DNA from: an uncultured cyanobacterium
GTDB lineage: Bacteria; Cyanobacteriota; Cyanobacteriia; Cyanobacteriales; CAWUOF01
Length of the DNA: 64,000 nucleotides
Assembly: GCA_963744145.1 (NCBI GenBank)
Contig: CAVUSO010000001.1
Span: 1,678,831 to 1,742,830, forward strand
Direction: 5' to 3'
A program made the position numbers and the translations under genes. The notes beneath the pieces were generated by a model that saw only the letters and a list, made by a program, of their open reading frames with translations, had not been told where the DNA came from and searched no databases. Each line of letters opens with the position of its first letter. The stretch's first letter is position 1. Of this stretch, positions 10,956-43,123 are shown one piece after another.

Positions 10956-11532
<577 letters not shown>

Positions 11533-11664
11533 GAATCAAACCTCTAATTAATCAGGCATTTCTGAGTCAAAGTTGAAAACTAAAAACTTCAACTAGAGAC
11601 AAAGTTTGTCCCATCATTCTTGTCACTGAACACTTTGCATATAAATTAGGGAGACAAAACCAAG

Positions 11665-12153
11665 ATGAAAACCCCAATTACTGAAGCAATTGCAGCAGCA
11701 GATACCCAAGGTCGTTTTTTAAGCAACACCGAACTGCAAGCTGTTGATGGTCGTTTCAAACGCGCTGTGGTATGTATGGATGCTGCTCGTGCTTTAACCA
11801 ACAATGCTCAAAACCTGGTTAATGGTGCAGCTCAAGCAGTATACAACAAATTCCCCTACACCACCCAACTGCAAGGCAATAACTATGCCTCTACCCAATA
11901 CGGTAAAGACAAATGCAGTCGTGACATCGGTTACTACCTCCGGATTATCACCTACGCTTTGGTAGCTGGTGGTACCGGTCCTCTAGATGAGTTCTTGATT
12001 GCTGGTTTAGCTGAAATCAACACTACCTTTGAACTCTCTCCTACCTGGTATGTAGAAGCTCTGAAATATATCAAGAGCAACCACGGTTTGGGTGGTCAAG
12101 CAGCAGTTGAAGCCAATGCTTATATCGACTACGTGATCAACGCTCTGAGCTAA
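11665..12153 (+). CDS. cpcA: C-phycocyanin alpha subunit
   Basis: [20 protein letters not shown]...YNKFPYTT...[14 protein letters not shown]...[15 protein letters not shown]. Confidence 0.95.
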
Positions 12154-24401: not shown

Positions 24402-25601
24402 ATGAAAGAGATCAGTTCTATTATTACGGCATTTTTAGACAGTCAACACAATAGTGAACCAATATTTCTAGCAACTGTTGTTAATGTGCAAGGTTCTCAC
24501 TATCGTCAACCAGGAGCGCGGATGCTCATTACATTAGCAGGTAAGATGGTAGGAACTATTAGTGGTGGTTGTCTGGAAAATGATGTCTTTCAACATACTC
24601 ACTTAATGACCCATCACCAACCCATTGTTGTCACTTATAATACCAATGCTGATCAAGATATTATTTGGGGATTGGGTTTGGGTTGTAATGGTGTGGTAGA
24701 TGTGATGATTGAATGTCTTGATCAGGATGATCTATTTAATCCCTTAGCTTTTATTCATCAATGTTTCTCTGAACAAAAACCAGGTATTATGGCTACTGTT
24801 TGTAGTGTTGATGATGCTGTTGCTAAGGTGAAATTAGAAACAAGATTAATCCTTAATGCTGATGGTACTATCAATACTAATATTGCTGAATCTAGTTTAA
24901 CTCAAATCTTAATCAAAGATGTCCAATCAGCTTTTAAAAATCAATCCTCAAGATTTCATAAATACCAACTTTCGTCAAGTCAAGTTAGTGTTTTTATTGA
25001 ATTTATTCAGATTCCTCCACACTTAATAATTTTTGGTGCTGGTCGCAATGCTTTACCAGTAGCAGAGTTAGCTAAAGCTTTAGGTTGGCAACTTACTATT
25101 ATTGATTGTCGAGCGATCGCTGCAACTAAAGAACGTTTTTTTATGGCTGATCATGTGATTCTGACCCAGCGAGAATCTTTAGATCAACATATAATATCTA
25201 TAAATGAACGTACTGTTGCTGTAGTTATGACACATAATTATCTCGATGATTTAGCAATTCTCAACCTACTGATACCAGCTAATTTAAAATATTTAGGTTG
25301 TTTAGGTTCTCAGCAACGCACCCAAAGATTATTAAATGATTTACTAGCTGAAGGAGTACAAGCAACACCAGAACAATTACAAAAATTATATGCTCCTGTT
25401 GGAATTGATATTGGTGCAGATACCCCGGAAACAATTGCATTATCTATTATCGCAGAAATTCAAGCATTCCTGACAGAGCGTCAAGGTGGTTTTTTAAAAG
25501 ACCGTGCTGCACCAATTCACTACCGTAATCAGGTAAAGGAAATTAAGATCGAACAAGCAAAACTAAGTTTTATGTGTAGAGGTTTTCATGCCTATTTATA
25601 A
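24402..25601 (+). CDS. XdhC/CoxI family molybdoenzyme maturation factor
   Basis: N-terminal XdhC_CoxI domain (ATVVNVQGSHYRQPGARM...GTISGGCLE) plus C-terminal Rossmann domain (IIFGAGRNALPV). Confidence 0.75.
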   Translation: MKEISSIITAFLDSQHNSEPIFLATVVNVQGSHYRQPGARMLITLAGKMVGTISGGCLENDVFQHTHLMTHHQPIVVTYNTNADQDIIWGLGLGCNGVVDVMIECLDQDDLFNPLAFIHQCFSEQKPGIMATVCSVDDAVAKVKLETRLILNADGTINTNIAESSLTQILIKDVQSAFKNQSSRFHKYQLSSSQVSVFIEFIQIPPHLIIFGAGRNALPVAELAKALGWQLTIIDCRAIAATKERFFMADHVILTQRESLDQHIISINERTVAVVMTHNYLDDLAILNLLIPANLKYLGCLGSQQRTQRLLNDLLAEGVQATPEQLQKLYAPVGIDIGADTPETIALSIIAEIQAFLTERQGGFLKDRAAPIHYRNQVKEIKIEQAKLSFMCRGFHAYL

Positions 25602-25602
25602 A

Positions 25603-25646
25603 AAGGGGGATAGAAGTGGTCGCCAATAGCGGCCACTTCCATCCCC
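25603..25646 (+). terminator. hairpin immediately after xdhC-family stop (GGGGGATAGAAGTGGTCGCC-AATA-GCGGCCACTTCCATCCCCC)
   Basis: Approximately 19-bp imperfect inverted repeat directly downstream of stop; no clear U-tract. Confidence 0.4.
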
Positions 25647-26164
25647 CTCCGTGTGAGAATGATTATTATTATCATACGAAGCTTTTCTATATTTTATTTT
25701 CTGGAAGTCCCTTAAAGGTAGTGCAGTTCTGAGTAAAACTATTTTTCCTCTGGTGCGTCCTGTCCAGGTTGTTGACCAGATTCAGAAAAAATTAAGTGGT
25801 CAGAACTGGTTTGTACATTTTCTTTTTACCCAAATATTGCTCGGAAATGAATCCGATTAAATTGGAATGGCAAAATCAGCAAAAAAGATGAACTATCCGG
25901 GCAATCGTTTGATGATGAATTAGACTTGGCTTATGCCGTAATTGATGCTGTTCAAGCGCGAGGAGACCGAGGAAATTATCCGACCAAACGGGTTAAATTT
26001 AAATCTCCGCCCACCGGTTAACTTTTCGTTATATACTTTAAATTTTTCCACCCACTTACTTACTTACTTGAAAATAACCGCTTTTTATTTTCCTGATCAT
26101 CAAGCTAGTGTGAAACAACGATGCTAATCTTAAACAATTGTATTCCCTGTAAAAATAGTATTTT

Positions 26165-27532
26165 TTGCGCTTACACCCCATTATATTTATGAAAATAACC
26201 CTCCCTTCTCAGTATGACTTTCTTTCTCGCTTCTTGAGACTAGCTTTTATCAATGTCGTTTCCAATATCACAGAGCCTCTAGCTGGAACAGTCAGCCTAG
26301 CGTTTCTGGGCTATCTAACCGAAATCCATCATTTAGCAGGGGTTACTCTCTCTACAACCCTGTTTAATTTCACCTATTTCATTGTCAACTTTTTACGCAT
26401 GGGAACCACTGGTGTGACAGCGCAAGCAGTGGGACGGAATGACCATGAAGAGATGCTGCTGGTAGGACTGCGTAATGGTTTAATTGGACTGGGGATAGGC
26501 GCACTACTTCTATTGTTGCAACATCCTCTGCAACAGTTGTGGTTTGGGATGATGAGTGCGACGACCGAGGTTAAAGCATCAGGGATTGACTATTTTAATG
26601 CCCGAATTTGGGGAGCGCCTGCGGTTGTCGTTAATTTTGTTCTCATTGGGTGGTTTCTCGGACGGGAGATGAGTGCTGTGGTGTTGCTGATTACCATAGT
26701 GGGTAACGTAGCTAATGTGGTGTTGGACTACCTGTTTATTGTCCACTGGGACTGGGCTAGCACGGGGGCGGGACTATCTCAAGCCCTGAGCCAGTATCTG
26801 ATGTTAGTGGTAGGCATAATTTTGGCGAGTCTCAAGATTGACTGGAAGGAAGCTCGAAGTGCAGCCAAAAAGTTTTGGAATACTAGCGCATTTAAAGCAG
26901 CTTTTACCCTGAATAGCAATATCTTCATCCGGTCTTTGGCAATTATGTTCGTGGTGACCATTTTCATGGCTTTTAGTTCTGCCATGGGGACATTGATCCT
27001 GACTGAAAACGCCTTACTCTTACAAATAGCATTGCTTTGTTGCTACATTTTCGAGGGAATAGGATTTGCGACGGAGACTTTAGGCGGAAACTTTAAAGGA
27101 CAACAAGCAATGGACCGGTTATTGCCCCTATTAAAGGTTACGTTAACAAGCAGCATATTGGTGGGAATAATCTTCAGCTTGGTGTGTGTCCTATTTCCTC
27201 AGACGGTTTTTGGGCTATTAACTAATCATGACGAAGTAAAGGAACTTTTTCCAATCTATGTTCCTTGGCTACTTTCTGTGTTAACATTTTGGGCAGTTCT
27301 CTTGACACTGGATGGATACTTTGCCGGTTTAGCCGAAGGAGAAGCCATTCGCAACGCAGCCTTAATATCAGCAATTTTCGGATTTGCGCCCCTAGCGGTT
27401 CTGGCATGGTATTCTCATAACAACCATATCTTGTGGCTGGCTATTTCAGTATTCGGGGCAACAAGAGCGTTGGTGCTTGCGCTACATATGCTAAGACCTA
27501 CCTTCCAAGAGAAATATCACTTGTTTGGCTAA
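26165..27532 (+). CDS. MATE family efflux transporter
   Basis: 12-TM protein with MATE N-lobe (GAALATTLSQ-like) pattern. Confidence 0.8.
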   Translation: MRLHPIIFMKITLPSQYDFLSRFLRLAFINVVSNITEPLAGTVSLAFLGYLTEIHHLAGVTLSTTLFNFTYFIVNFLRMGTTGVTAQAVGRNDHEEMLLVGLRNGLIGLGIGALLLLLQHPLQQLWFGMMSATTEVKASGIDYFNARIWGAPAVVVNFVLIGWFLGREMSAVVLLITIVGNVANVVLDYLFIVHWDWASTGAGLSQALSQYLMLVVGIILASLKIDWKEARSAAKKFWNTSAFKAAFTLNSNIFIRSLAIMFVVTIFMAFSSAMGTLILTENALLLQIALLCCYIFEGIGFATETLGGNFKGQQAMDRLLPLLKVTLTSSILVGIIFSLVCVLFPQTVFGLLTNHDEVKELFPIYVPWLLSVLTFWAVLLTLDGYFAGLAEGEAIRNAALISAIFGFAPLAVLAWYSHNNHILWLAISVFGATRALVLALHMLRPTFQEKYHLFG

Positions 27533-27571: not shown

Positions 27572-27871
27572 TTGTTTTTTAGAGGGCTGTTCTTTTTTAC
27601 CATAAAACCCCCAAATTATTCCAGAGTATGGCTCTTACCGTTCTTGTCACCCCTGTTTGATCAACAATTGGAACAAGCCAAACCAGCAGCAGAACAGCAG
27701 GGTATACAAATGGGACAGCGTCGCCTGCTCGAAAATCTCCTCATGTCACGTTTTGGTGACTTAGATGAGGAACTAACAGCGATCATCTCACCTTTGTTAG
27801 CGCTACCGCCCGAGGAGTTGGCTTCTGCGCTGCTTCAATTATCTCGTGAAGAATTATTATCTCGGTTTTGA
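27572..27871 (+). pseudogene. remnant of Rpn/YhgA-like PD-(D/E)XK transposase family gene (only DUF4351 C-terminal domain retained)
   Basis: C-terminal 55 aa QQGIQMGQRRLLENLLMSRFGDLDEELTAIISPLLALPPEELASALLQL matches DUF4351; N-terminal 40 aa low-complexity. Confidence 0.4.
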
Positions 27872-28194: not shown

Positions 28195-28475
28195 GTCAGT
28201 AACCCAGCCCTAAAGGGATGTAGCTCGAAAGAGCTATACTGACCAGACTCCACGGGTAGATTGATTTGAGTCAAGACGCGCCTTGAATGCGACGTAGGGG
28301 CTTGTTGTTCTTGCGCCCGTACATCACAAAAGTACACCAATCTGAACAATCCCCGTGTAATGGACAAAGAAATATTTACTGGCGGTTAAAACCGCGCTTA
28401 GTCGTTTTCCTCTCAGGTCTAAAGACGCGCTCGTTTCCCACAAACCCAAGTTTTCTTATGAGTTTTTTGCAATAA
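28195..28475 (+). ncRNA. degenerate IscB omega-RNA scaffold homolog (solo copy) ending in an IscB start remnant ATGAGTTTTTTGCAATAA (MSFLQ*)
   Basis: Alignable to the minus-strand RNA upstream of iscB at 35556-35765: GTCAGTAACCCA..GTAGCTC(T)GAAAGAGCT(G/A)TACTGACCAGAC(C/T)CCACGGG..AATGCGACG.., with compensatory stem changes (CAAGGCTAAAGCCTTG vs CCCTAAAGGG). Confidence 0.45.
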
Positions 28476-28606
28476 TTCTCAATTTTCTGCCCCCAGAGGA
28501 CTTTTTGGCAATCTAAAGATGTTAGATGGGTTCTATATAGACAAGGTTGTTCCTAGCTTGCTTAAAAATTAAATTTGTAACCTAATGAAAATCAGGATAT
28601 AAGCTT

Positions 28607-29536
28607 ATGAATAACAAATCTGAAAAAACAGGACCTAAAGTTGACTTAACCTATGACGACTATATTGGTTTAGAAACTCTTCTTTCTCTTCAAAAAACTC
28701 TTACTCCTTATCACGATGAACTTATTTTTTTGGTATATCATCAGCAGACAGAACTTTGGTTTAGCCTTATAATTCATGAGATTAAGCGATTTATTCAGTT
28801 ATTAATATCTACTGATAGTGATTTTGTAAATGCCCTGGATGCTGTTAAGCGTATTAATAGATATCTTTCTATATTAATAAATAGTTTTGATGTTCTACTT
28901 GAAGGTATATCTACTGAAGAGTTTCTTATCTTTCGTAAAGCTTTTGGTTCTGCTAGTGGATTTCAATCAGTCCAATTCCGGATAATAGAAATTCTTATTG
29001 ACCTCAAATGTGAAGATTCCGACTTTTTAAGTAAGAAAATCAATTTGCCTACTGATCCGAAAGATATAAATCATACTCCGACAAAATCAAGTACATTCTA
29101 CTGGGAGAATGCTTACCATTATCTTTCTCCAAATCAGCCAACAACCACTCTTATAAATTTCAAAAATAAGTATCAAGATTTTTTAAATGATTTATATCAA
29201 AAAGGAGAAAGAATTTCACTTATATCTGCATTTTATTATGTGGTGTCTGATCGGAAATTCGGATTAGAAGGGATAGTTGAAACTCTTGAAAAGCTATTTA
29301 TAGATGGGGAAAATAAAGCTATTATTAAAATAGCTGAAGAGCTAATCAAAATGGATGATTCTATTATCCAGTGGAAACGCACACACTTAAAAGCTGTTGC
29401 TAAACACATGAGTCAAGTAAAGTATGGAACCGGTCAAACAGAATGTATGGAATACTTAAAAAAAAGTATTGTTAAAAATCACTACTTTCCAGAACTTTAC
29501 TTAGCAAAAAGCAAATCTTTAGGAATTACGCATTGA
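28607..29536 (+). CDS. tryptophan 2,3-dioxygenase family protein (AT-rich gene)
   Basis: LTYDDYIGLETLLSLQ...HDELIFLVYHQQTELWFSLIIHE and SGFQSVQFRIIE, ...YGTGQTECMEYL...FPELY match TDO/KynA hallmark motifs. Confidence 0.75.
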   Translation: MNNKSEKTGPKVDLTYDDYIGLETLLSLQKTLTPYHDELIFLVYHQQTELWFSLIIHEIKRFIQLLISTDSDFVNALDAVKRINRYLSILINSFDVLLEGISTEEFLIFRKAFGSASGFQSVQFRIIEILIDLKCEDSDFLSKKINLPTDPKDINHTPTKSSTFYWENAYHYLSPNQPTTTLINFKNKYQDFLNDLYQKGERISLISAFYYVVSDRKFGLEGIVETLEKLFIDGENKAIIKIAEELIKMDDSIIQWKRTHLKAVAKHMSQVKYGTGQTECMEYLKKSIVKNHYFPELYLAKSKSLGITH

Positions 29537-29691
29537 CAGAATGATAAAATAGTGTAGTCGAAAATGGATATCGTCTATAATGAGGTATGAAAAATTAGAA
29601 AAATCACTAAAGCCTCAACCGCAAAATGTAATTTGGAACATTACTGTCTATTTTTGTTATCAGAACCCAAACGTGGCGGATGGGGAGTATC

Positions 29692-30144
29692 TCAGCTTAA
29701 TCTTTTCACATGGGTATCAACCGTAATCCCAGCATCAATATTATAGGCATAATGAAGGAGCATTGTTGTCGTCTTACGAGCTACACCTGGAAGTTTAACT
29801 AATTTTTCAATATTTGAAGGCACTTCACCATCAAATTGTTCAATTAGCATAGTGCAAGTACCTTTGATCATTTTTGCCTTATTGCGATAAAATGTCACTG
29901 GCTTGATCACTGTTTCAATTTCGACTAACTCAGCCTGAGCTAAACTGGCAACATCGGGAAAACGACTAAATAGTTCTGGAGTAACTTGATTAACTCGCTC
30001 ATCAGTACATTGAGCTGCCATAATAATAGCGAGTAACAATTGCCAAGGTGTTTCGTAGTTGAGGGGACAAGGGGAATTTTGATAAGGGACTTCCAGAAAA
30101 TAAAATATACAAAACTTCCAGATGAGAATAATAATCGTTCTCAT
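29692..30144 (-). pseudogene. nth: endonuclease III, 3'-truncated (lacks C-terminal [4Fe-4S] cluster region)
   Basis: ETPWQLLLAIIMAAQCTD...LPGVARKTTTMLL...VDTHVKRLS then stop; about 60 C-terminal residues including the Cys cluster absent; downstream 155 bp has no Nth-like frame. Confidence 0.6.
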
Positions 30145-30146
30145 CC

Positions 30147-30173
30147 GGGGGGTGGGGAAAGCCCTTCCCCCCC
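30147..30173. repeat. G/C-clamped hairpin GGGGGGTGGGGAAAGCCCTTCCCCCCC upstream of nth
   Basis: Read directly; member of GGGGG/CCCCC hairpin class. Confidence 0.4.
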
Positions 30174-30239
30174 TTTTTTGTAGTAAATTCAAGAATAGTT
30201 CGATTTTGAGGTGTTTAAAGTGTTCATAGAATTAACTGA

Positions 30240-30640
30240 GGCGTTAAAAGAGTTATGAAAGGAAACTGCCAGTCAATTAAGGGGAAGAGCCAAGCGGAAA
30301 TTCCTGGCCCAAACAGTCCAAAAATTAGGTTTGAGAGGAATCTGACTGGCAGAATTAGAATTAGGGTGGAACCGCATAACTATTAATAAAGGAATTAAAG
30401 AATTAACAACGGGAATTACTTGTGTAGATAACTATTCAGGGCGAGGCAGAAAAAAATCCGAACAACATTTACCAAATCTTTGATCGGATATTAAAAATTT
30501 AGTTGACTCTCAAAGTCAAATAGATCCAACTTTTAAAAGTGAGCGGCTATATACCCGTCTAACAGCTACTGAAGTGAGAAAGTTATTAATTGAAAAAGTT
30601 GGTTATAGTGATGAAGAATTACCAGGAAACGTTGATCCCC
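30240..30640 (+). mobile_element. ISAzo13-family transposase N-terminal fragment with in-frame stops (dead IS remnant)
   Basis: Translation ...ITINKGIKELTTG...GRGRKKSEQHLPNL*SDIKNLVDSQSQIDPTFKSERLYTRLTATEVRKLL... resembles the N-terminus of ISAzo13 (DDE_Tnp_ISAZ013) transposases; interrupted by stops; no DDE domain follows. Confidence 0.5.
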
Positions 30641-30882
30641 ATCTCGGTCATCCTATGGTTTATGACCTAGCTACCTATCACTATCCCACCCATGCTGATA
30701 TTCCCCGAATTCAAGTTACTTTTGTGGGTGAACCGGATTTTAATTTTAATTCTGCTGGTGTCCGTGGTGTTGGTGAAATTGGAATTACTGGTGTTTCAGC
30801 CGCGATCGCTAATGCGGTTTATTATGCTACAGGTAAACGGATACGTGCATTACCAATCACACCTGATCAGTTGTTAAGATAA
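30641..30882 (+). pseudogene. C-terminal about 70-aa remnant of xanthine dehydrogenase/aldehyde oxidase molybdopterin-binding subunit fused in frame to the transposase fragment
   Basis: HPMVYDLATYHYPTHADIPRIQVTFV...GVGEIGITGVSAAIANAVYYATGKRIRALPITPDQLL is the hallmark C-terminus of XdhB/CoxL-type Mo subunits; the rest of the gene is absent. Confidence 0.55.
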
Positions 30883-30954
30883 TATTTGGTTTATTGGTGG
30901 CATATCCGCTACCAATTAATAAGAAAATAGTTAGATTATAATCACCAGCTAACT

Positions 30955-31764
30955 GTGTTTTTTATGAACAATCCTACTCGTTTACCACCAAACTTTGATC
31001 TACCACTACTATCAAGGCAAAACTTGCCAACCATGTATGATTTACCCAGTGAAGATCCAGAGGAGCCAGGATTGGCAGATATTTTTCACCTCGACCAACC
31101 ACAATTTTTAGAGGTTACTTTCCAACCGGAGAACTACGATCCAGAACAAGTGTTTAGCGCGATCGACCTTTATCTTTACTATGATATTAACCACCCGAAC
31201 TGGCACAAGCGCCCAGATTGGTTTGCAGTTGTCGGTGTCCCGTATTTATACGATGGCTGGGACTTGCGTTTGAGCTATGTGATGTGGCAAGAACAAGTTA
31301 GCCCCATTGTCGTAGTTGAGTTATTGTCGCCTAGTACAGAAAAAGAAGATTTAGGGCAGACCGTTAGTCAACCGGGTTCTCCACCGACCAAATGGGAGGT
31401 TTACGAGCAAATTCTGCAAGTTCCCTACTACGTGACTTTCAGCCGCTACACTAACCTTATGCAGGCTTTCCAACTGATTGATGGTAAATATCAACCTGCG
31501 AATCTGACTGATGGACGTTTGGTAATTCCCCAAATCGGACTAAGTTTAGGTCTTTGGTACGGGTCTTATAAGAATAAATCCCGGTTGTGGTTGCGCTGGT
31601 TTACAGCTCAAGGAAATTTGATTCTTACTCCTGAAGAGAAATTGGTCGAAGCTCAACAGGAAACGATCGCAGCTAAACTGCAAGCTGATCAAGCACAACA
31701 AGAAGCTGAAAGACTAGCTGCAAAATTGCGCGAGTTGGGTGTTGATCCAAATACGTTGCTTTAA
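30955..31764 (+). CDS. Uma2 family (DUF820) putative endonuclease with C-terminal coiled coil
   Basis: PTMYDLPSEDPEEPGL...VVVELLSPST pattern of Uma2; Q/A/E-rich heptad tail. Confidence 0.75.
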   Translation: MFFMNNPTRLPPNFDLPLLSRQNLPTMYDLPSEDPEEPGLADIFHLDQPQFLEVTFQPENYDPEQVFSAIDLYLYYDINHPNWHKRPDWFAVVGVPYLYDGWDLRLSYVMWQEQVSPIVVVELLSPSTEKEDLGQTVSQPGSPPTKWEVYEQILQVPYYVTFSRYTNLMQAFQLIDGKYQPANLTDGRLVIPQIGLSLGLWYGSYKNKSRLWLRWFTAQGNLILTPEEKLVEAQQETIAAKLQADQAQQEAERLAAKLRELGVDPNTLL

Positions 31765-32632: not shown

Positions 32633-33679
32633 TTATTTGATCAGATTTGACTCGAAAAGTTTTTCACAAAACTCTATTAATCGGTTTATTCCCCAAAATT
32701 TATCCTCAGTAGCATTCTTGACATTAATATGAGCTGTATGACCACCAAATTCAGTGAGGAGCAGATGAGCATAGGGATTCTCACTGATCAATTGTTTTAT
32801 TTCTGGAATCAATTTGGGGTCAAATATGGGATCATCTTCAGCATAAACGATCAGATAGGGTAGGGTTAGCTCTGTCAAAAAGTAAATCGCACTGGTTTTT
32901 TGATAATATTCATCTACACTGGCAAATCCATAGTAATCAATTACCATTTCCCGATCAAAGCTATCAATTGAGTTCACCCGTTCTACTGCACCTGGTTTAA
33001 CCGCATCAGGAAAAAGTTGACGACGTTTCTGAGCTTCAACCCGCAGTTGCTTCACAAAATATTGTTCAATCCGTCTTCCTAACCATGTACTTCGCAAATA
33101 AGCTAGAGCGCGATTCGATTCCAGATTACAAGAAATAGTAGCCGCACCAAGAATAAAAGGACAATTCTGGGCGATCGCTGCTTTTAATCCCCATAAAGCT
33201 AATTGTCCTCCTAAAGAAAACCCCACCAGCGCGACCCGATTTGGACAACCCATCGCGATTAGTTCTGCGGCAATTTTTACTTGGTCTTCCCCTTCTCTCC
33301 AACCATCCGCAGAGGGAATTGGGGAAAGTTCCGCTGTCCGTCCATGTCCACGCCAATCATAGATCATCACAGCCAAACCGCGATCGTAGGCTTTTCGAGC
33401 CAAAATCTCACCATACCACGATTGTTTTACTTCTGCGGTAATGCCCAGATTCAGAATAATTGTTCCTTTTGCATTAGTCGGACAACTCCATAATCCCCAT
33501 AATGGTACTCCGTCAGCTCCTGTAAAAATATGCTCTTGCCAAGGAACTGGGGGCAAATATTGTAACCAAAATACGCGATCGCCCCACCATTTCCAGGTAG
33601 TGCCGTACCATTGATCGGTAAAAATAGTCATTATTGAGCCATTTTTGAGATACCAAGGGGGTTGGTAAGGTAGCATCAT
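32633..33679 (-). CDS. alpha/beta-fold hydrolase (YheT/ABHD-like)
   Basis: Nucleophile elbow GFSLGG, HGRTAE region, C-terminal His. Confidence 0.8.
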   Translation of the reverse strand: MMLPYQPPWYLKNGSIMTIFTDQWYGTTWKWWGDRVFWLQYLPPVPWQEHIFTGADGVPLWGLWSCPTNAKGTIILNLGITAEVKQSWYGEILARKAYDRGLAVMIYDWRGHGRTAELSPIPSADGWREGEDQVKIAAELIAMGCPNRVALVGFSLGGQLALWGLKAAIAQNCPFILGAATISCNLESNRALAYLRSTWLGRRIEQYFVKQLRVEAQKRRQLFPDAVKPGAVERVNSIDSFDREMVIDYYGFASVDEYYQKTSAIYFLTELTLPYLIVYAEDDPIFDPKLIPEIKQLISENPYAHLLLTEFGGHTAHINVKNATEDKFWGINRLIEFCEKLFESNLIK

Positions 33680-33723: not shown

Positions 33724-34185
33724 CTATTTATTAGGATTACTGAGACAGGTATTTTTTATGTCTTCAATTACCTGATCTCGGTCTTTTTTAGAATCCTCTA
33801 AATTCTGAGATGCTTCAATAAAATTTGGTTGATTTTTATTTTTGGCAGCCTTCATCCGATCATCGAGGGCTTTGCTAGTTCCTTCATAACTTTTAAATAG
33901 ACGAGATTTAAAATCTAAGCTTTTTTCATTAGTAATTTTAAACTGGTTAAGTTCTCTAGCTCCTTGCTGAAAAATCTCACTCAGTTTATTAATGTAGTCC
34001 GTATCATCATTGGCTTTTTTCAGCTTTTCAGCATCCTTAGTATCATCCATAATGTGATTATGAATTTCTAGTATTTGTGTTGCTTCATCTTTATTACACA
34101 TCGGTTTTTTAACGCAACTATTGACCATTAAGCTAATCGCTATTATTACAGAAAACATGGCCATGTCTTGACGAGAAATTTTCAT
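33724..34185 (-). CDS. hypothetical Lys/Asp-rich lipoprotein (AT-rich gene)
   Basis: Signal peptide plus lipobox MVNSC; sits 85 bp downstream of iscB stop with two hairpins between. Confidence 0.4.
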   Translation of the reverse strand: MKISRQDMAMFSVIIAISLMVNSCVKKPMCNKDEATQILEIHNHIMDDTKDAEKLKKANDDTDYINKLSEIFQQGARELNQFKITNEKSLDFKSRLFKSYEGTSKALDDRMKAAKNKNQPNFIEASQNLEDSKKDRDQVIEDIKNTCLSNPNK

Positions 34186-34270
34186 AAAAAAACCTGGTAA
34201 GTGGGAAACTCAGGTTCTTTAGACCTGAGAGGTAAACAACCCAAGTGGTTTTAACCACCTAAGAATATTT

Positions 34271-35555
34271 CTAATCTGCGTAACCATAACCGTCCTTATG
34301 GTGGACAATCTGGCAGTATTTGTGACTAATCCCTTGAACTAATTTCCCGGCTGAAATGTTAAAAGAGCCGCTTGTCCTAATTGCTACCCGACCGACATAT
34401 TTGCCGATTTTCTTACCTTTTGTGACAATCGCTTTGACGATATCACCAGTTTGAAAACCTTTGACGAATTTGAATCTAGGGACATATCGATCAGGAAATC
34501 CAAACTCGTTAGTTCGGCACATTTGACGAGTTCCATGACCAGTTGCTTCAATCAACAATGGTTTAGCTGTTAGTAGCTTCAGCGAGTCAATTTTACCGAC
34601 ACAACTAGCGTCAATCCAATGTGCTTTTGGTAGGTTTAACCGAGTACGATTAAATTTTGTTAATCCACCTGAACCAGTTGAAACAGGCAACTCAGTTTCC
34701 TTGAGCCTATTAAATAGTGCCCATCGGGTTGAGTTAACTGCCGCAGCATCTTTTAACGGGCGTTTGGCTTGAGCCAATACTCGCTTTAGAACATCTGGTT
34801 TCTTAGCTAGAAACTTCTCAATAGATTGAATACCTTTCTTTTGATTACATTTTTCGCAAGCTAAACAAAGGTTAGAGATTCGGTCACTACCACCTTTCGC
34901 TTTAGGATGAATATGTTCTACTTGTAGTTGCAGATTTTCTGATCCACAATAGGCGCATTTTCTCTCCCATTTTTCTAGTAGGTATTCACGTACTTCATAC
35001 CCTAATAATGTTCCTTGCTGGTACTCTATTCCTGTTATTTCAGGATTTTCTTCTTTCTGTAAATCGAACTTTACCAACTCCAGCGCAATTGAGCTAATTG
35101 GTGCTAATTTGATTAATCTTTTTACCCAAGTTATGGTGGTTTCAACTCGGTGTTGTAAACTAGGTGCTAGCCATCCTTTAGGACGGGTTCTATTTAAGAA
35201 CCTTGCTTGACGGTAACGAGTATGGCGATTTCTGCGATTTCGACGTAGTGAACACCGAGATTCTAGACTAGCTTTAATCGTTTGTCCCCGATGAGTTAGT
35301 TCTGCACCAAAAATTACTTTCTCGCCTTGAATAATCGCAAACCCGGTTGTTTTTGAGCCTGGATCGATCTTAATTTCTAATTCTTGAACAGACCTCAGTA
35401 GAAACCTCTTTCAAGATAATCGTGAAGGGATAACGTCTGAATACAGCCGCTTTTCCTTGACTAAGTAATAAACGTGCTTTAGCCGGATGAACCGGATCTA
35501 GTGGTCGTTTATTCGTATCCAAAACAAATGCGAAATTTGACATTTGAAACTCCAT
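34271..35555 (-). CDS. iscB: IscB (IS200/IS605-associated OMEGA RNA-guided nuclease, Cas9 ancestor); one frameshift near 35385-35410; start probably at 35543 (MSNFAFV)
   Basis: N-terminal PLMP domain [45 protein letters not shown]; Ruv[14 protein letters not shown]; Arg-rich bridge helix [25 protein letters not shown]; HNH CAYCGS...[30 protein letters not shown]; RuvC-II/III downstream. Confidence 0.75.
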
Positions 35556-35765
35556 TGCTGGGTAATGTTCGCTTCGACCTGTTATAAGGGCTTTTTAGAC
35601 CTGCAACACTACTTCAGTGACCTTAAAGCTGTTTAATTGCAGATGACAGAGCGGAAAACTAGCGTCGCATTCTCCGGTGTCGTGACCCAAATAACGTCTC
35701 CCCGTGGGGTCTGGTCAGTACAGCTCTTTCAGAGCTACAAGGCTTTAGCCTTGGGTTACTGACGA
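35544..35765 (-). ncRNA. putative IscB omega-RNA scaffold (5' of and overlapping iscB start), guide expected just beyond 35765
   Basis: Minus-strand hairpins CCAAGGCTAAAGCCTTG, GTAGCTCTGAAAGAGCTGTAC, GACCCCACGGGGAGAC; second divergent copy at 28195-28457 with covarying stems. Confidence 0.55.
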
Positions 35766-38820: not shown

Positions 38821-39765
38821 TTATCGATCGCTGAAATTTATCAAAGATAAACACTGATCTAGAGATTGTTTGACTGTTTTGACAGCTGCCTCTAAAGGCA
38901 TATTTCTGATTTTCTCATTCCATGGTTCTACAGCAACAGGTCCAGTGTAGCCTTTTTTATATAGTGCTTGTAAAAAATCAATAATCTTAGTTACTCCTGT
39001 GGTCAATGGTAATTCTCTTTCAAACTCTGGGATGCTAAACATATCATAACCAGACAACCCATCATTTAATTCTATATATAATAGATATTCTAAATCTAGA
39101 TGATGAATATCCAGTACGCTTGCGCCGCTATTTTGCCAATGATGAACATCAAATTTCAATCCACCATAACCATATATTCCTGCACTAGCAATCAGGGCGC
39201 GAGTACCATCTATAGTATGAATAAAGTCGTATTTTGTGCTGCACCTAGTTTCAGTAGGCCCGATAAACTCAAAGCCAATTTTGATATCATATTTTTGTAA
39301 AATTGGTTTTAGTTCCCGCAAGCGATCGCTAGTTTGAATAAATAGATCGTTAAAGTTACGCTCGTCGCTAAATGGTGGGAGGTAACAGAGAGTTAGCTTA
39401 CAGCCAATTTCTTGAGCTTGTTTAGCCTGTAATTCAAATTGAGGTAAATTTTCCTCAAACTCTTTTTGGCTGCCAAATAAGTTCACAGGAATGCCAAATG
39501 AAACGGGTTTTAAATTAAGCTGGCTTAGTAATTCTTTGCACTCAGAAATGCTGAACAGATTCAGCATATTAAAATCAATATTAATCCCTTCAAATCGATA
39601 TTGATGAGCCAAATTGCAAATTTTTTCAAAATCATTGACAATCTGACCAATATGTCCGCAGTGGTTTAAATTACCAATAGGAGCAGTTAAATTTAAGATG
39701 GGATACATTTTCAATTTACCTATGAAGCAAATGTTAATAATTTTAGATATTTTACTGTTAAACAC
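38821..39765 (-). CDS. sugar phosphate isomerase/epimerase (xylose-isomerase-like TIM barrel); start probably internal (MYPILNL)
   Basis: AP-endonuclease-2/TIM-barrel family pattern (GFEGINIDF..., ...VEPWNE); AT-rich. Confidence 0.65.
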   Translation of the reverse strand: MFNSKISKIINICFIGKLKMYPILNLTAPIGNLNHCGHIGQIVNDFEKICNLAHQYRFEGINIDFNMLNLFSISECKELLSQLNLKPVSFGIPVNLFGSQKEFEENLPQFELQAKQAQEIGCKLTLCYLPPFSDERNFNDLFIQTSDRLRELKPILQKYDIKIGFEFIGPTETRCSTKYDFIHTIDGTRALIASAGIYGYGGLKFDVHHWQNSGASVLDIHHLDLEYLLYIELNDGLSGYDMFSIPEFERELPLTTGVTKIIDFLQALYKKGYTGPVAVEPWNEKIRNMPLEAAVKTVKQSLDQCLSLINFSDR

Positions 39766-39823
39766 CTAAAAACAAGTTTCCCGATTCGTTCAATTCATCA
39801 CTGTACATAAGTTCAGCTAAAAT

Positions 39824-41039
39824 TCAATTTTGTAAGCCTGGTAAAATAATATTAGAAGAAGATAGGTGCGAGTTTTTTGCCACCTGCCAAGCCAAAATAC
39901 TTGCTATCAACATGGCTATTGTAAAAATCCAAAATGACCAAGATGGACTTAACATTCCGAAGACAAACCCAGTCGCAATCGGGCCAGCAATTCTAGCTAA
40001 GGCAGAAACCGATTCGGCTAAACCCAATATTTTGCCCTGCTCTCTTGCTCCAGCAGCTTGAGAAATTAGACTGCTTAACAGAGGAAAGCAAAGAAAGTTG
40101 CCACTTCTATTCAAAGCTACTGCTCCCAATACCCAAGATATAGTCGTTGAAAAGGGTAGCAAAAATGCCCCAAAACCTGATAAGAGTAATCCCCAAAAAA
40201 GTAGATTGGCTTCACCAAAACGTTTGGTAAGTCGTTCGACAAATCCAGCTTGGACAACAACAGCTACTAAACCTGAAAACATATAAATATAACCAATTTG
40301 TTGAGCATCTAAGCTTAACTGTTGTTTACACCAAATCCCCAGGATGGCACTCGTTCCTACCAACACGAAAGTATTCAAAAACAACGATAATATGAGCCAG
40401 ACTATTAATGAACTCTGGAATATCTGTGCAAAACCTAAAAAGTTTAATGAGGAATGATTATTTTGGGTTTTGACTACCTGCTGCGCTGGTTTTGACTCAG
40501 GTAGAACCAGCAAAGCAATAATAAATCCCACTAGGGACATACTAGCAGCAAATAAAGGTGGGAGAATCAAATTTGGATTTTGGGGGTTAGAACCCACCAA
40601 TATACTGCTAATAGCCGGACCCAAACATAGTCCTACTCCAAAGGCAGTTCCAATGATAGCCATGCCCTTGGCTCGGTTTTCCTTGGTCGTAATATCAGAG
40701 ATATATACCCTGATCCAGAAGTAAAGTTCCCGCCATCACTCCTTCTAATGCTCGGCAAGCAAACAGTACCCATAGAGAACTTGCACAACTCAACCACGCA
40801 TAAGCAAAACTGCTACCGATTAGACTGAGCAATAGCATAGGACGACGACCAAAGCGCTCGCTCATCATTCCCCACAAAGGTGCGAAGATAAACTGCATTA
40901 AGGCATATATGCTAAACAGTAGTGTAACTACAGTAGGCGAGGCTTCAAACTTCGAGGCGTAAAATGGCACTAAGGGTATAATGATTCCGAAACCAATCGT
41001 ATCGATCAATGCACTTAAAAACAAGATCGAGTACATCAT
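39824..41039 (-). CDS. MFS transporter, split into two ORFs by a 1-nt frameshift in a (TA)n run at about 40698-40708
   Basis: ORF 40695-41039 has MFS motif ...GMMSERFGRRPMLLL...; alternate frame across the break reads YISDITTKENRAKGMAIIGTAFG, continuous with ORF 39824-40663. Confidence 0.7.
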
Positions 41040-41584
41040 TCTATGTTTATTCCTGAGTCAACAATTTCCAACTCTAGACAATCCTTTTCGATTAGCTTGT
41101 GAGTGAAATAATCTATATCACCTGTATCAGCAAGCTCTAAGTTATAGAAATCTACGAAATCATCATCGAAAAAAGGCCCAGCGTGCCAAACGCCCATTCC
41201 TATTTTAATAAAGCAATTACCAGGAATCCTAAAGGCAGTTAGTTTCTCTATTTCTGGTCGTTCTACCTCCGTTGGCGGAGCAACAACAATAAACCAGTCT
41301 TTTCCAATAGATCCTATACATTGATTGCATTCAAGGTGGCGCACTATTCTGTCAACATTTCGACCAGTTTTTTTCAAGCGCATACCCCAAAAAAAAGGAG
41401 TGCCATTTTCCAGGTTTAATACAACACCACCGCTTCGATCAGAAGGTCTGCCATTAAATGTACCCTGATCGTGAGCAGTGATTAATTCTCCAAAGGGTTG
41501 AAAGCTTTCTGATGTAATCCACTCAGCACGAACTTTTTTAGTTTGATAATCTGTAGTCATGGTAATTCTTTTGCCTCCAAGCAA
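41036..41584 (-). CDS. cupin-fold protein, ureidoglycolate lyase (AllA)-like
   Basis: FQPFGELITAHDQGTFNGRPSDR...VVLNL resembles ureidoglycolate hydrolase family N-terminus; assignment tentative. Confidence 0.45.
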   Translation of the reverse strand: MLGGKRITMTTDYQTKKVRAEWITSESFQPFGELITAHDQGTFNGRPSDRSGGVVLNLENGTPFFWGMRLKKTGRNVDRIVRHLECNQCIGSIGKDWFIVVAPPTEVERPEIEKLTAFRIPGNCFIKIGMGVWHAGPFFDDDFVDFYNLELADTGDIDYFTHKLIEKDCLELEIVDSGINIE

Positions 41585-41656
41585 ATTCAGAACTTAGTTT
41601 TATTTTCAAAATGAAGCTGATGTACTTCTAAACTATTCTCAACCATGATTCCTCCT

Positions 41657-43123
41657 TTAATTATCATTGATGTATACCAGAGCTTTTTCCCACACAACTT
41701 TGGCAACTTGGCGACCAAGTTTTAAGCCTTCGATATGATCGGATTGGAGATGAGATCCACCATATAATTGCGAAATTCCTGCGGCTTCTGCTATAGATGT
41801 GAAAGTAGGAAATGAAAGGGTTACATTAGTTTCAAATCCTGGTTCGGTTAAAGCACCAGCCTTCACGGTGAACGATTCCCCAAAGTAGTCACTCCCAGTA
41901 AAGAGTTTGAGAATTTCAGCACAAGCAGCACTTACTGCGCTATGCCCAGCAACATAGCCCGGAAATGGTGGTGTGGTGAAACTATACGGTGAATAAGGAT
42001 GCCATTGATTCCCCAACATTGTTATGGTTCCTTTCCCAGGACCACCCCACGCACGAACAGACTTTCGATCAAAATAATAATGGATCAGCGTCCAGGGCCG
42101 GGACCGATCATAGTAGCGTTTTGCGTCCCACGTCGCAATAAAGGCATCCATGACTGTGTTAGACAAAACGAAAAATAGCTTAATATCTTGATCTAGAGTG
42201 TGTTTATTTCGTCGAGCAATACTTTGCCCAAAACCTAACCAGAGCCCAGCTAGCCCAGCTTGCTGGTCCGAACCTGGTGCATCACGCATGAACTCAACTA
42301 GAGCTTTTTGTTCAGCAGTTAAGTTCGCACTCATTTCCAAAACTTGTTGAGCTTGCTGATCCAGTTGTTCGGAACCGACACTGGGTGGTGCAGGCGGTAG
42401 AAACTGATCGGGCCGCAACAGCGCAAAAGGCTTGACTCGATACCAATGAGGAGTCAAAAATTTTGGTGTCAGTGTTTCACCTTTGGAATCTACCAAAGAA
42501 ATGGGCTGCCAATGGTTTGGATCTACGATTTTATCTACGGTATTGATTGGTTGATAAAAAGTGTAATCTGAGTAGGGCAATCCATTGGAGCCAAATTCAT
42601 CCCCTAGTTGATTTGCACCATCATGATGTCGGTACTCAAGAATTGCTGCTGCAACAGTGTTTCCAATTCCTTGCGGAGTTGTTTTGTCCGTTGAATAGTC
42701 ATCTGCATTGAATCCGAATTTCCGCATTTGAGATGCAAGATAAGCAGATTCTTCTGGATACATATCAACTAAAGTACGATAAGCAGCAAAGCTAATTGCT
42801 TTGGTTTGGTAAGTTAAACTCCTTTCTGATGCAGGACGACGCAATGTTCCTCCCAGACTATTTCCAATAGCTTTTTCGTCATAAGCAGCCCAAGCATCGA
42901 ACATTACCGTTCCTAAAATAGCTAACGCCCGAGAGGTAACTGTTGGTCTAGTTCGATGACGAGCTACATCATGGGATATTGTTTTAAAAGCGACATCCCA
43001 CCACTGAAAAGCAATGCTTGGTTTCCAGCTTGAAGCACTTTTTGGTATTTGAGCATCTGCTGGCGCCAAAGACAAAAATAGCAATAGTAGGGTAATTATG
43101 AATGGCGTTAAACATTTTAACAT
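41657..43123 (-). CDS. secreted vanadium-dependent haloperoxidase (PAP2 superfamily)
   Basis: Signal peptide; vanadate-site motifs DAFIATWDAKRYYDRSRPW, PGYVAGHSAVSAA, SQLYGGSHLQSD. Confidence 0.75.
   Translation of the reverse strand: MLKCLTPFIITLLLLFLSLAPADAQIPKSASSWKPSIAFQWWDVAFKTISHDVARHRTRPTVTSRALAILGTVMFDAWAAYDEKAIGNSLGGTLRRPASERSLTYQTKAISFAAYRTLVDMYPEESAYLASQMRKFGFNADDYSTDKTTPQGIGNTVAAAILEYRHHDGANQLGDEFGSNGLPYSDYTFYQPINTVDKIVDPNHWQPISLVDSKGETLTPKFLTPHWYRVKPFALLRPDQFLPPAPPSVGSEQLDQQAQQVLEMSANLTAEQKALVEFMRDAPGSDQQAGLAGLWLGFGQSIARRNKHTLDQDIKLFFVLSNTVMDAFIATWDAKRYYDRSRPWTLIHYYFDRKSVRAWGGPGKGTITMLGNQWHPYSPYSFTTPPFPGYVAGHSAVSAACAEILKLFTGSDYFGESFTVKAGALTEPGFETNVTLSFPTFTSIAEAAGISQLYGGSHLQSDHIEGLKLGRQVAKVVWEKALVYINDN

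What the first reader, a model, noticed from the sequence alone, without database searches (positions are those of the whole stretch)
28607..29536. Isolated, AT-rich tryptophan 2,3-dioxygenase-like gene in an accessory region
Hallmark TDO motifs are intact, but the gene has markedly lower GC than its surroundings, consistent with horizontal acquisition. It sits between a solo omega-RNA remnant and a truncated nth. It has no kynurenine-pathway neighbours (no kynB/kynU), so it could serve an atypical role such as N-formylkynurenine-type tailoring.
Basis: partly seen in the sequence, partly recalled or inferred. Interest (0 to 1): 0.5.

Follow-up and report, generated by a model that had tools for sequence, protein, structure and literature searches.

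The report
Stand-alone tryptophan dioxygenase gene in cyanobacterium
This is an intact but ordinary tryptophan 2,3-dioxygenase gene from a small cyanobacterial branch of a Bacteroidota/Ignavibacteriota-type family, sitting alone in a patch of broken genes, with nothing to suggest an unusual role.

Summary
The ORF at 28607-29536 (+) is real and encodes a 309-aa tryptophan 2,3-dioxygenase (TDO) family protein. It passes the Pfam threshold, its predicted fold matches only TDOs in the PDB, and all catalytic and substrate-binding residues checked are present. It is the most AT-rich of 51 long ORFs in the window (30.9% GC against a mean of 40.4%).

Further remnants lie beyond (ISAzo13 transposase, Mo-enzyme tail, DUF4351).

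In a bootstrapped tree the protein falls in a 9-member cyanobacterial clade. That clade sits beside sequences that include Kapabacteria and Ignavibacteriota proteins, with Bacteroidota as the rooting group. This supports lineage-level horizontal origin. Low GC is shared by the cyanobacterial homologs examined, so it does not date the transfer.

Lack of pathway neighbours is normal here: only 5 of 79 Bacteroidota loci have kynureninase within 10 kb. The sister Nostoc genes sit in an anthranilate-dioxygenase-like/TDO/kynureninase operon. No biosynthetic cluster is nearby.

Most likely this is a stand-alone KynA-type enzyme (L-Trp + O2 to N-formylkynurenine) under somewhat relaxed constraint (dN/dS 0.37). 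It is a new member of a known kind, of low interest.

The parts
28607..29536 (+). Tryptophan 2,3-dioxygenase family gene, 309 aa, intact. Distal His45 is codon 28739-28741, Arg110 is 28934-28936, proximal haem-ligand His260 is 29384-29386, Thr275 is 29429-29431.
   Evidence: Sequence read.
28480..29700 (.). AT-rich tract (GC 29-35% in 200-nt windows) made up of the TDO coding sequence plus about 125 nt upstream and about 160 nt downstream. It is bounded by the HEARO remnant and the nth breakpoint.
28195..28461 (+). Internally deleted copy of the HEARO/IscB element. The head (28195-28294) resembles the 5' part of the HEARO RNA and the tail (28368-28461) resembles the sequence after the HNH ORF of the full element at 34182-35763 (-).
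   Evidence: Rfam HEARO, 31 bits, E 1.8e-4, below gathering score. (blastn 80% and 75%).
27572..27871 (+). Short ORF whose C-terminus matches DUF4351 just below the Pfam cutoff. Probably a gene fragment.
   Evidence: 24.6 bits against cutoff 25.
29692..30192 (-). Endonuclease III (nth) lacking its 3' end. nth homology spans about 29695-30108. The last 66 codons, including the Fe-S cluster loop, are absent from the window.
30200..30620 (+). N-terminal fragment of an ISAzo13-family transposase with three in-frame stops, fused in frame to the next fragment.
   Evidence: translation. (NF033519, 60 bits, model positions 3-119 of 387).
30620..30882 (+). C-terminal tail (about 85 codons) of a molybdopterin oxidoreductase large subunit (PaoC/XdhA type). 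The rest of the gene is missing.
   Evidence: PaoC model positions 646-728 of 735. (an intact 907-aa homolog lies near nth in Aerosakkonema).
26165..27532 (+). MATE efflux transporter about 1 kb upstream on the same strand. Highest GC3 in the window. Not shown to be functionally linked to the TDO.

Best explanation
The gene encodes a haem-dependent tryptophan 2,3-dioxygenase of the KynA type that inserts O2 across the C2-C3 bond of free L-tryptophan to give N-formylkynurenine. It belongs to a divergent branch of the family found mainly in Bacteroidota and in Ignavibacteriota/Kapabacteria-type bacteria. A small cyanobacterial clade arose from that branch by horizontal transfer. In this genome the gene stands alone in a roughly 5-kb patch of rearranged and degraded DNA, and has evolved under weakened but still purifying selection.

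Shown: family membership, fold, conservation of catalytic and substrate-binding residues, composition, phylogenetic position, and context here and in relatives.

Inferred: catalytic activity, L-Trp as substrate, expression, and the fate of the product. The product is probably hydrolysed to kynurenine by a non-dedicated hydrolase, or by pathway genes elsewhere in the genome.
For: Family and fold: Pfam PF03301 at 134 bits. The AlphaFold model has pTM 0.80 and its top 50 PDB matches are all TDOs, with TM up to 0.77 to Ralstonia TDO.

Active site: distal His, proximal His, the Trp-carboxylate Arg, the Trp-ammonium Thr and the N-terminal Tyr pair are all present. The protein deviates at only 4 of 64 columns that are at least 90% conserved, which is mid-range for the clade.

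Selection: dN/dS against the 72% homolog is 0.37, below neutrality. A stand-alone ortholog pair (Crinalium-like and Oculatellaceae) has dN/dS 0.13, within the range of its neighbours (0.03-0.33).

Functional linkage of the clade to the kynurenine pathway: kynureninase lies directly downstream in Nostoc and in L088, and directly upstream in three Bacteroidota loci. The Nostoc operon also carries an AndAc-like anthranilate dioxygenase.

Horizontal origin: tree topology. The Nostoc kynureninase is 66-72% identical to proteins that include named Kapabacteria and Ignavibacteriota sequences. Contexts differ in each cyanobacterial subclade. No TDO is present at the nth loci of Oscillatoria princeps or Aerosakkonema. 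The gene has the lowest GC in the window.
Against: No biochemical or expression data exist.

Constraint is weaker than in the Crinalium-type pair (0.37 against 0.13). The window lineage carries about twice as many unique substitutions as L001 (21 against 9; p 0.03-0.37 depending on the outgroup). The gene is surrounded by pseudogene fragments, so it could be on its way to loss.

It scores 152 bits on the NCBIfam KynA equivalog model (cutoff 390.7), although every clade member tested does the same, including the kynureninase-linked ones.

No kynureninase from the same 7.63-Mb contig appeared among the 120 best relatives of the Nostoc kynureninase, so a downstream pathway in this organism is unproven.

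The tree is neighbour-joining on corrected distances, not maximum likelihood. Most metagenomic members have no taxonomic label.
Confidence: 0.7

Rival explanations
1. The gene is a non-functional leftover: an intact-looking ORF that no longer serves the cell and is drifting towards loss, like the fragments around it.
For: It sits between five gene remnants: DUF4351 tail, HEARO remnant, truncated nth, ISAzo13 fragment and Mo-enzyme tail. dN/dS of 0.37 is about three times that of the Crinalium-type pair. It has the longest terminal branch in the cyanobacterial clade and an excess of unique substitutions. It has two unique changes at near-invariant columns, T175P and L268M. No partner kynureninase was detected.
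Against: The 309-codon ORF is uninterrupted. All 34 invariant columns, including every catalytic residue, are retained. dN/dS is well below 1. Its count of deviations at conserved columns (4) is lower than in the kynureninase-linked Nostoc subclade (6-7). Stand-alone TDOs are maintained by selection elsewhere.
Confidence: 0.17
2. The gene has an atypical biosynthetic role: it supplies N-formylkynurenine or kynurenine, or oxidises a modified tryptophan, for a secondary metabolite.
For: There are no pathway neighbours. The closest homolog (72%, L001) follows an HD-domain oxygenase-like gene and a luciferase-like monooxygenase gene on the same strand with short gaps. A MATE transporter that passes the GntT (guanitoxin cluster) model lies 1 kb upstream.
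Against: No NRPS, PKS or other biosynthetic genes lie beside the gene. The window around it holds housekeeping genes. No remnant of the HD or luciferase-like genes is in the window. No other gnt gene was found. The MATE gene is separated from the TDO by two remnants and has the opposite compositional bias. Residues that recognise free L-Trp are unchanged. Isolation is the rule in this family.
Confidence: 0.05
3. The gene is an old, vertically inherited cyanobacterial gene lost from most lineages. Its AT-richness is an intrinsic property (low expression, amino-acid composition) and not a mark of transfer.
For: The cyanobacterial sequences are monophyletic (98%). Low GC is shared by the cyanobacterial members examined, while the two members of the sister tier that were examined have host-like GC (L088 47.4 vs 44.9; Kapaibacterium L006 41.9 vs 42.0).
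Against: Only nine 90%-identity clusters form the cyanobacterial clade in a search of 5.8 billion proteins. Contexts are unrelated between subclades. The clade sits beside, and is rooted by, sequences from the Bacteroidota/Ignavibacteriota group. The linked Nostoc kynureninase is 66-72% identical to proteins that include named Kapabacteria sequences.
Confidence: 0.08

Closest known systems
Bacterial tryptophan 2,3-dioxygenase KynA (EC 1.13.11.11), e.g. Xanthomonas campestris (PDB 2nw7) and Ralstonia/Cupriavidus metallidurans (PDB 2nox)
   Same: Same Pfam family and all-helical fold. Same proximal and distal histidines, Trp-carboxylate arginine, Trp-ammonium threonine, Ser-Gly-Phe-Gln loop and N-terminal tyrosines.
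   Different: Sequence identity is only about 20-29%. HMMER aligns just two blocks (residues 13-133 and 239-299). The region between them (about 134-238) is longer and divergent, and partly of low model confidence. The protein scores far below the NCBIfam equivalog cutoff. Y113 is Phe; from memory, human TDO also has Phe there (F140).
'Tryptophan 2,3-dioxygenase family protein' of Bacteroidota, Ignavibacteriota and Kapabacteria (uncharacterised; named by NCBI and JGI annotation)
   Same: Same length class (about 300-330 aa), same invariant residues and same low score on the KynA equivalog model. Usually stands alone in the genome.
   Different: Identity to the window protein is 30-47%. These genes have host-like GC in the two loci examined. 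Several are adjacent to kynureninase.
Cyanobacterial members of the same clade: Crinalium epipsammum PCC 9333 (WP_015202260.1), an Oculatellaceae MAG, and Nostoc sp. DedQUE03 / CHAB 5715
   Same: Same clade (98% bootstrap). AT-rich relative to host. Same catalytic residues.
   Different: Identity is 50-55%. These proteins carry about 20 extra N-terminal residues. The Crinalium type lies between FtsH and UbiD. The Nostoc type lies in an operon with an AndAc-like Rieske dioxygenase and kynureninase.
Other haem-dependent aromatic oxygenases of the TDO superfamily used in natural-product pathways (PrnB, MarE, SfmD/tyrosine hydroxylases; listed from memory)
   Same: Distantly related haem-binding fold.
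   Different: None of them appeared ahead of genuine TDOs in the sequence or fold searches. The window protein keeps the TDO-specific substrate-binding residues. No associated cluster is present.

Membership tests
Tryptophan 2,3-dioxygenase family (Pfam PF03301) | Significant match to the family profile above the curated threshold | tested here: met
   134.4 bits against cutoff 34.9, E 7.9e-39.
Tryptophan 2,3-dioxygenase family (Pfam PF03301) | All-helical TDO fold | tested here: met
   AlphaFold2 model has pLDDT 77 and pTM 0.80. The top 50 Foldseek PDB hits are all TDO, with TM up to 0.77.
Catalytically competent TDO / KynA (EC 1.13.11.11) | Proximal histidine ligand to haem iron (XcTDO H240) | tested here: met
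   H260 aligns to H240 and is invariant in 41 clade sequences.
Catalytically competent TDO / KynA (EC 1.13.11.11) | Distal histidine at the indole N1 (XcTDO H55) and Phe51 | tested here: met
   F41 and H45 align to F51 and H55. H45 is invariant.
Catalytically competent TDO / KynA (EC 1.13.11.11) | Recognition of free L-Trp: Arg117 (carboxylate) and Thr254 (ammonium) | tested here: met
   R110 and T275 align and are invariant. Y113 is Phe.
Catalytically competent TDO / KynA (EC 1.13.11.11) | N-terminal segment (Tyr24, Tyr27, Leu28) that completes the neighbouring subunit's pocket in a tetramer | tested here: inconclusive
   Y16, Y19 and I20 are present. However, the N-terminus is about 20 residues shorter than in most clade members, residues 1-28 are modelled with low confidence, and the oligomeric state cannot be tested here.
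Catalytically competent TDO / KynA (EC 1.13.11.11) | Haem binding and L-Trp to N-formylkynurenine activity | not testable with these tools
   Requires the purified protein.
NCBIfam TIGR03036 (KynA equivalog) | Score at or above the curated equivalog cutoff (390.7 bits) | tested here: not met
   152 bits. All eight clade members tested score 100-160 bits, including those next to kynureninase. The model does not cover this branch, so failing it does not argue against the activity.
Kynurenine pathway gene set (kynA-kynB-kynU) | Pathway partners encoded nearby or elsewhere in the genome | tested here: not met
   No kynureninase is in the 64-kb window. None from the 7,634,710-bp contig appears among the 120 best relatives of the Nostoc kynureninase, though a distant one cannot be excluded. 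kynB was not searched for specifically. Partners are adjacent in sister lineages.
TDO-like tailoring enzyme of a biosynthetic gene cluster | Location inside or next to a cluster with core biosynthetic genes | tested here: not met
   Every ORF examined within about 12 kb on either side, and all large ORFs of the window, are housekeeping, regulatory or mobile-element genes.

The most novel reading that the evidence does not exclude
Stand-alone TDOs kept by a few cyanobacteria without a kynureninase partner (this genome, Crinalium, an Oculatellaceae MAG) may make N-formylkynurenine or kynurenine as an end product and not as a catabolic intermediate. Possible uses are a UV-A-absorbing or redox-active metabolite, a signal, or a precursor for an undescribed compound. 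The purifying selection on the Crinalium-type gene (dN/dS 0.13) shows that a solitary copy is useful to its host. The evidence neither requires nor excludes such a role.
Probability: 0.1. Interest if true: 0.5.

Novelty: new member of a known kind. Interest (0 to 1): 0.2.

Why it matters
It matters little beyond annotation. Cyanobacteria make NAD by the aspartate route (PMC4217691), so a TDO is an accessory gene for them. This case adds one more member to a small, horizontally derived cyanobacterial TDO clade. It also shows two pitfalls for genome scans. A gene's low GC can be a family trait and need not mark recent arrival. And 'no pathway neighbours' is the default state for this branch of the family. 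The one mildly useful lead is that solitary TDOs are under selection in some cyanobacteria, which leaves open what they do with the product.

Tried and rejected
1. Looking up the exact protein's contig found nothing on record, so the rest of the 7.63-Mb genome could not be read.
It returned only Bacteroidota and one Kapaibacterium, with no cyanobacteria and not the source genome.
The host was placed only roughly, through nth homologs.
4. A search for direct or inverted repeats bounding the gene found only short, low-identity pairs of the kind chance gives. No mobile-element boundaries could be defined.
5. I searched the window for remnants of the HD-domain and luciferase-like genes that precede the closest homolog, and found none.
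6. tblastx synteny with Crinalium, Oculatellaceae, Nostoc, L088 and Kapaibacterium loci showed only the TDO itself. The one exception is an alpha/beta-hydrolase about 3 kb away in both Nostoc and the window (41% identity), which I treat as probably coincidental.
7. Guanitoxin cluster idea: apart from the GntT-like MATE, no gnt gene was found. Rejected.
8. Plasmid or phage carriage: the best plasmid match is 28.7% identical and there is no phage match.
9. Five literature searches found no paper on a cyanobacterial TDO or on the Bacteroidota-type enzyme.
10. Pfam did not recognise the transposase fragment. NCBIfam did.
11. The promoter scan gave about as many sites as in shuffled sequence (12 against 8.0, sd 2.5), so it says nothing on expression.

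Full report
**What is there.** The ORF at 28607-29536 (+) is an uninterrupted 309-codon reading frame starting with ATG. It matches the Pfam tryptophan 2,3-dioxygenase family far above threshold (134 bits against cutoff 34.9, E 7.9e-39). It also matches solved bacterial, insect and human TDO structures by sequence (best 2nox, E 5e-26). An AlphaFold2 model built on a 41-sequence alignment has pTM 0.80. Its 50 best Foldseek matches in the PDB are all TDOs, with TM-scores up to 0.77 against the Ralstonia enzyme. An independent public contig (L089) is 99.92% identical over window 28467-30987, so the sequence and its immediate context are not an assembly artefact.

**Active site.** I used the HMMER alignments to X. 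campestris TDO and its published residue numbering, which I recalled from memory and confirmed by counting along the alignment. The window protein keeps the following:
- the N-terminal Tyr24 and Tyr27;
- Phe51;
- the distal His55 (His45 here);
- the carboxylate-binding Arg117 (Arg110);
- Ser124-Gly125;
- the proximal haem ligand His240 (His260);
- the ammonium-binding Thr254 (Thr275).

Tyr113 is Phe; from memory, human TDO also has Phe at this position. His45, Arg110, His260 and Thr275 are invariant across 41 members of the clade. The protein departs from the consensus at 4 of 64 columns that are at least 90% conserved. That is mid-range for the clade and lower than in the kynureninase-linked Nostoc subclade.

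**Composition.** The gene has the lowest GC of the 51 ORFs of at least 120 codons in the window: 30.9% against a mean of 40.4% (sd 3.7, z = -2.6). Both third positions (21.6%) and first-plus-second positions (35.5%) are low. At 200-nt resolution the low-GC tract runs from about 28480 to 29700, which is the coding sequence plus short flanks.

The same comparison in the homolog loci changes what it means. The cyanobacterial homologs examined are also AT-rich relative to their surroundings:
- Crinalium-like L002: 32.9 against 40.3;
- Oculatellaceae MAG: 32.9 against 40.3;
- Nostoc: 35.6 against 39.8;
- L001: 32.8 against 34.9, a weak contrast based on only about 3.6 kb of flank.

The two members of the sister tier that were examined are not AT-rich (L088 47.4 against 44.9; Kapaibacterium 41.9 against 42.0). 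Low GC is therefore a shared trait of the cyanobacterial clade. By itself it does not show recent arrival in this genome.

**Flanks.** Upstream, Rfam finds a sub-threshold HEARO match at 28195-28286 (31 bits against a gathering score of 83, E 1.8e-4) with most of the model interior missing. By blastn, 28195-28294 resembles the first 100 nt of the intact HEARO RNA at 35562-35763 (-), and 28368-28461 resembles the tail of that element beyond its HNH ORF. It is thus an internally deleted copy of the IscB/HEARO element.

Downstream, the ORF at 29692-30192 (-) matches endonuclease III over model positions 7-143 of 192. Full-length relatives are about 215 aa. Homology to the Aerosakkonema and Oscillatoria princeps genes stops exactly at 29695 with 66 codons missing. 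No EndoIII Fe-S motif occurs in any frame of the window.

Three further remnants lie beyond:
- the first 120 or so codons of an ISAzo13 transposase with three in-frame stops;
- fused to it, the last 85 or so codons of a PaoC/XdhA-type molybdenum subunit;
- upstream of the HEARO remnant, a borderline DUF4351 tail.

In Aerosakkonema an intact 907-aa Mo subunit, a Uma2 fragment and nth lie within 6 kb of each other. The window therefore preserves a scrambled residue of that neighbourhood. The rest of the window is ordinary chromosome: EPS sugar genes, a phycocyanin-related gene cluster (a frameshifted cpcB, cpcA, a CpcG-like linker gene, cpcE, cpcF), psb27, bioB, bioY, lspA and a class A PBP.

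**Relatives and phylogeny.** The exact protein is on record from one 7.63-Mb contig. The next relatives are:
- a 72%-identical protein on a 4.5-kb metagenomic contig (L001);
- cyanobacterial proteins at 50-55% (Crinalium epipsammum PCC 9333, an Oculatellaceae MAG, Nostoc spp.);
- a large tier at 42-47% that includes named Kapabacteria and Ignavibacteriota proteins;
- Bacteroidota at 30-37%.

I built a neighbour-joining tree with 100 bootstraps, rooted on Bacteroidota. It gives a cyanobacterial clade of nine clusters (98%). Inside it, the window protein and L001 are sisters (100%) and group with the Nostoc subclade (97%). The cyanobacterial clade sits beside the tier that contains the Kapabacteria and Ignavibacteriota sequences.

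The gene's context differs in each subclade:
- between FtsH and UbiD in Crinalium and the Oculatellaceae MAG;
- in a Rieske-alpha, Rieske-beta, TDO, kynureninase operon in Nostoc;
- after HD-domain and luciferase-like genes in L001;
- among remnants in the window.

tblastx finds no shared neighbours apart from one alpha/beta-hydrolase. The nth loci of Oscillatoria princeps and Aerosakkonema carry no TDO. The Nostoc kynureninase is 66-72% identical to proteins that include named Kapabacteria and Ignavibacteriota sequences. Together this supports transfer of a TDO, with or without kynureninase, from the Bacteroidota/Ignavibacteriota group into cyanobacteria, followed by patchy spread or loss. 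No close relative is on a plasmid (best 28.7%) or a phage.

**Is isolation unusual?** No. Among 79 Bacteroidota loci with a median of about 10 kb of flank on each side, only five have a kynureninase in the locus and only three have it adjacent. The Crinalium-type gene also stands alone, yet its dN/dS between two relatives is 0.13, within the range of its neighbours (0.03-0.33). A solitary copy is therefore maintained by selection there.

Where partners are present they are the canonical ones: kynureninase and, in Nostoc, an AndAc-like anthranilate 1,2-dioxygenase (428 bits, below that model's cutoff). That arrangement reads as tryptophan to anthranilate to catechol catabolism. All clade members tested score only 100-160 bits on the NCBIfam KynA equivalog model, including the kynureninase-linked ones. 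The window protein's failure to reach that cutoff therefore reflects the model's coverage and nothing peculiar to this gene.

**State of the gene here.** dN/dS against L001 is 0.37 (dS 0.46). This is clearly below 1 but about three times the value for the Crinalium-type pair. Relative-rate tests give the window lineage 18-23 unique substitutions against 9-13 for L001, with p from 0.03 to 0.37 depending on the outgroup. This fits relaxed but not absent constraint. I could not find a kynureninase in the window. None from the same contig appeared among the 120 best relatives of the Nostoc kynureninase, though that list reaches only to 47% identity, so a distant one cannot be excluded.

**Most likely mechanism.** The protein is a haem-dependent dioxygenase acting on free L-tryptophan to give N-formylkynurenine. 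It would work as in characterised KynA enzymes: ferrous haem held by His260, O2 and the indole ring positioned by His45 and the hydrophobic pocket, and the amino-acid moiety held by Arg110 and Thr275. These steps are inferred from residue conservation and fold, not shown. The product would be deformylated by a non-dedicated hydrolase or by genes elsewhere. I put this at about 0.7. The main rival, a drifting relic, I put at about 0.17. A tailoring role gets about 0.05, and an ancient vertically inherited gene about 0.08.

**Novelty and verdict.** This is a new member of a known enzyme family, in a known type of setting: an accessory gene in a decayed, IS-ridden patch. Horizontal origin holds at lineage level. 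The arguments from GC and from missing neighbours are weaker than they look, and the tailoring idea has no support. Interest is low (0.2). The most novel reading still open is that solitary cyanobacterial TDOs make kynurenine-type compounds for a non-catabolic purpose (probability about 0.1).

**Caveats.**
- The tree is distance-based.
- Nei-Gojobori estimates in AT-rich genes are approximate.
- Most metagenomic homologs lack taxonomy.
- The source genome outside the window could not be read.
- Two frameshifts elsewhere in the window, in cpcB and in the IscB gene, suggest either real pseudogenes or indel errors in the assembly. The TDO-nth region itself is independently confirmed.

Noticed in passing
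window 26165-27532 (+): This MATE transporter passes the curated NCBIfam cutoff for GntT, the efflux transporter of the guanitoxin cluster (630.7 bits against 525, full length). It also has the highest GC3 in the window (46.5%). No other gnt gene was found among the window ORFs scanned, so the label may be an over-broad equivalog call or the gene may be an orphan.
   Followed up: partly
window 34182-35763 (-): A full HEARO RNA lies at 35562-35763 (131 bits), followed by an IscB-like gene. The HNH-containing ORF at 34271-35077 is only its C-terminal part. The N-terminal part reads in another frame, so there is at least one frameshift. An internally deleted copy of the same element lies at 28195-28461 (+).
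   Followed up: partly
window 11013-11665 (+): The phycocyanin beta-subunit gene cpcB is frameshifted near codon 110. The remaining roughly 60 codons ([18 protein letters not shown]...) continue in the +1 frame. For such a core gene this suggests an indel error in the assembly, which is a caution for other pseudogene calls in this window.
   Followed up: partly
window 38821-44298 (-): A run of same-strand genes: xylose-isomerase-like TIM barrel, MFS transporter (only model positions 123-347, so possibly truncated), ureidoglycolate-lyase-like, vanadium-chloroperoxidase-like (DUF6851 + VCPO_2nd + PAP2), and a 3-dehydroquinate-synthase-like sugar-phosphate cyclase that overlaps it by 7 nt. This could be a small biosynthetic cluster. 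It is unrelated to the TDO by distance and by the intervening mobile element.
   Followed up: no
window 30083-30152 and 25645-25714; L001 376-427: A roughly 70-nt dispersed repeat (84% identical between the two window copies, in opposite orientation) overlaps the 5' end of the nth ORF. It also occurs on the contig that carries the closest TDO homolog. It contains a GC-rich hairpin followed by a T-run that the terminator scan picked up.
   Followed up: no
L004 8198-12322 (Nostoc sp. DedQUE03): An apparent operon of AndAc-like anthranilate 1,2-dioxygenase alpha and beta subunits, TDO and kynureninase. The kynureninase is 66-72% identical to proteins that include named Kapabacteria and Ignavibacteriota sequences. 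This suggests that a tryptophan-catabolic module was transferred as a unit into Nostoc.
   Followed up: partly
window 32633-33679 (-) and L004 13768-14832: An alpha/beta-hydrolase (YheT/PRK10985-like) lies about 3 kb from the TDO in both the window and the Nostoc locus, at 41% identity. This is probably coincidence between common cyanobacterial genes, but hydrolases of this fold can act as kynurenine formamidases.
   Followed up: no
window 24402-25601 (+) and 30620-30882 (+); L092 505-4037: An XdhC-type maturation factor is intact, but the molybdenum enzyme it would serve survives only as an 85-codon tail. Aerosakkonema keeps the intact FAD and Mo subunits near nth. The operon appears to have been destroyed by IS-mediated rearrangement.
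   Followed up: partly
whole window: Eight of the nine window proteins found in the look-up are singleton clusters at 90% identity among 15 billion sequences. The nearest nth homologs are only 64-75% identical. The organism is therefore a poorly sampled Oscillatoriales-like cyanobacterium.
   Followed up: partly
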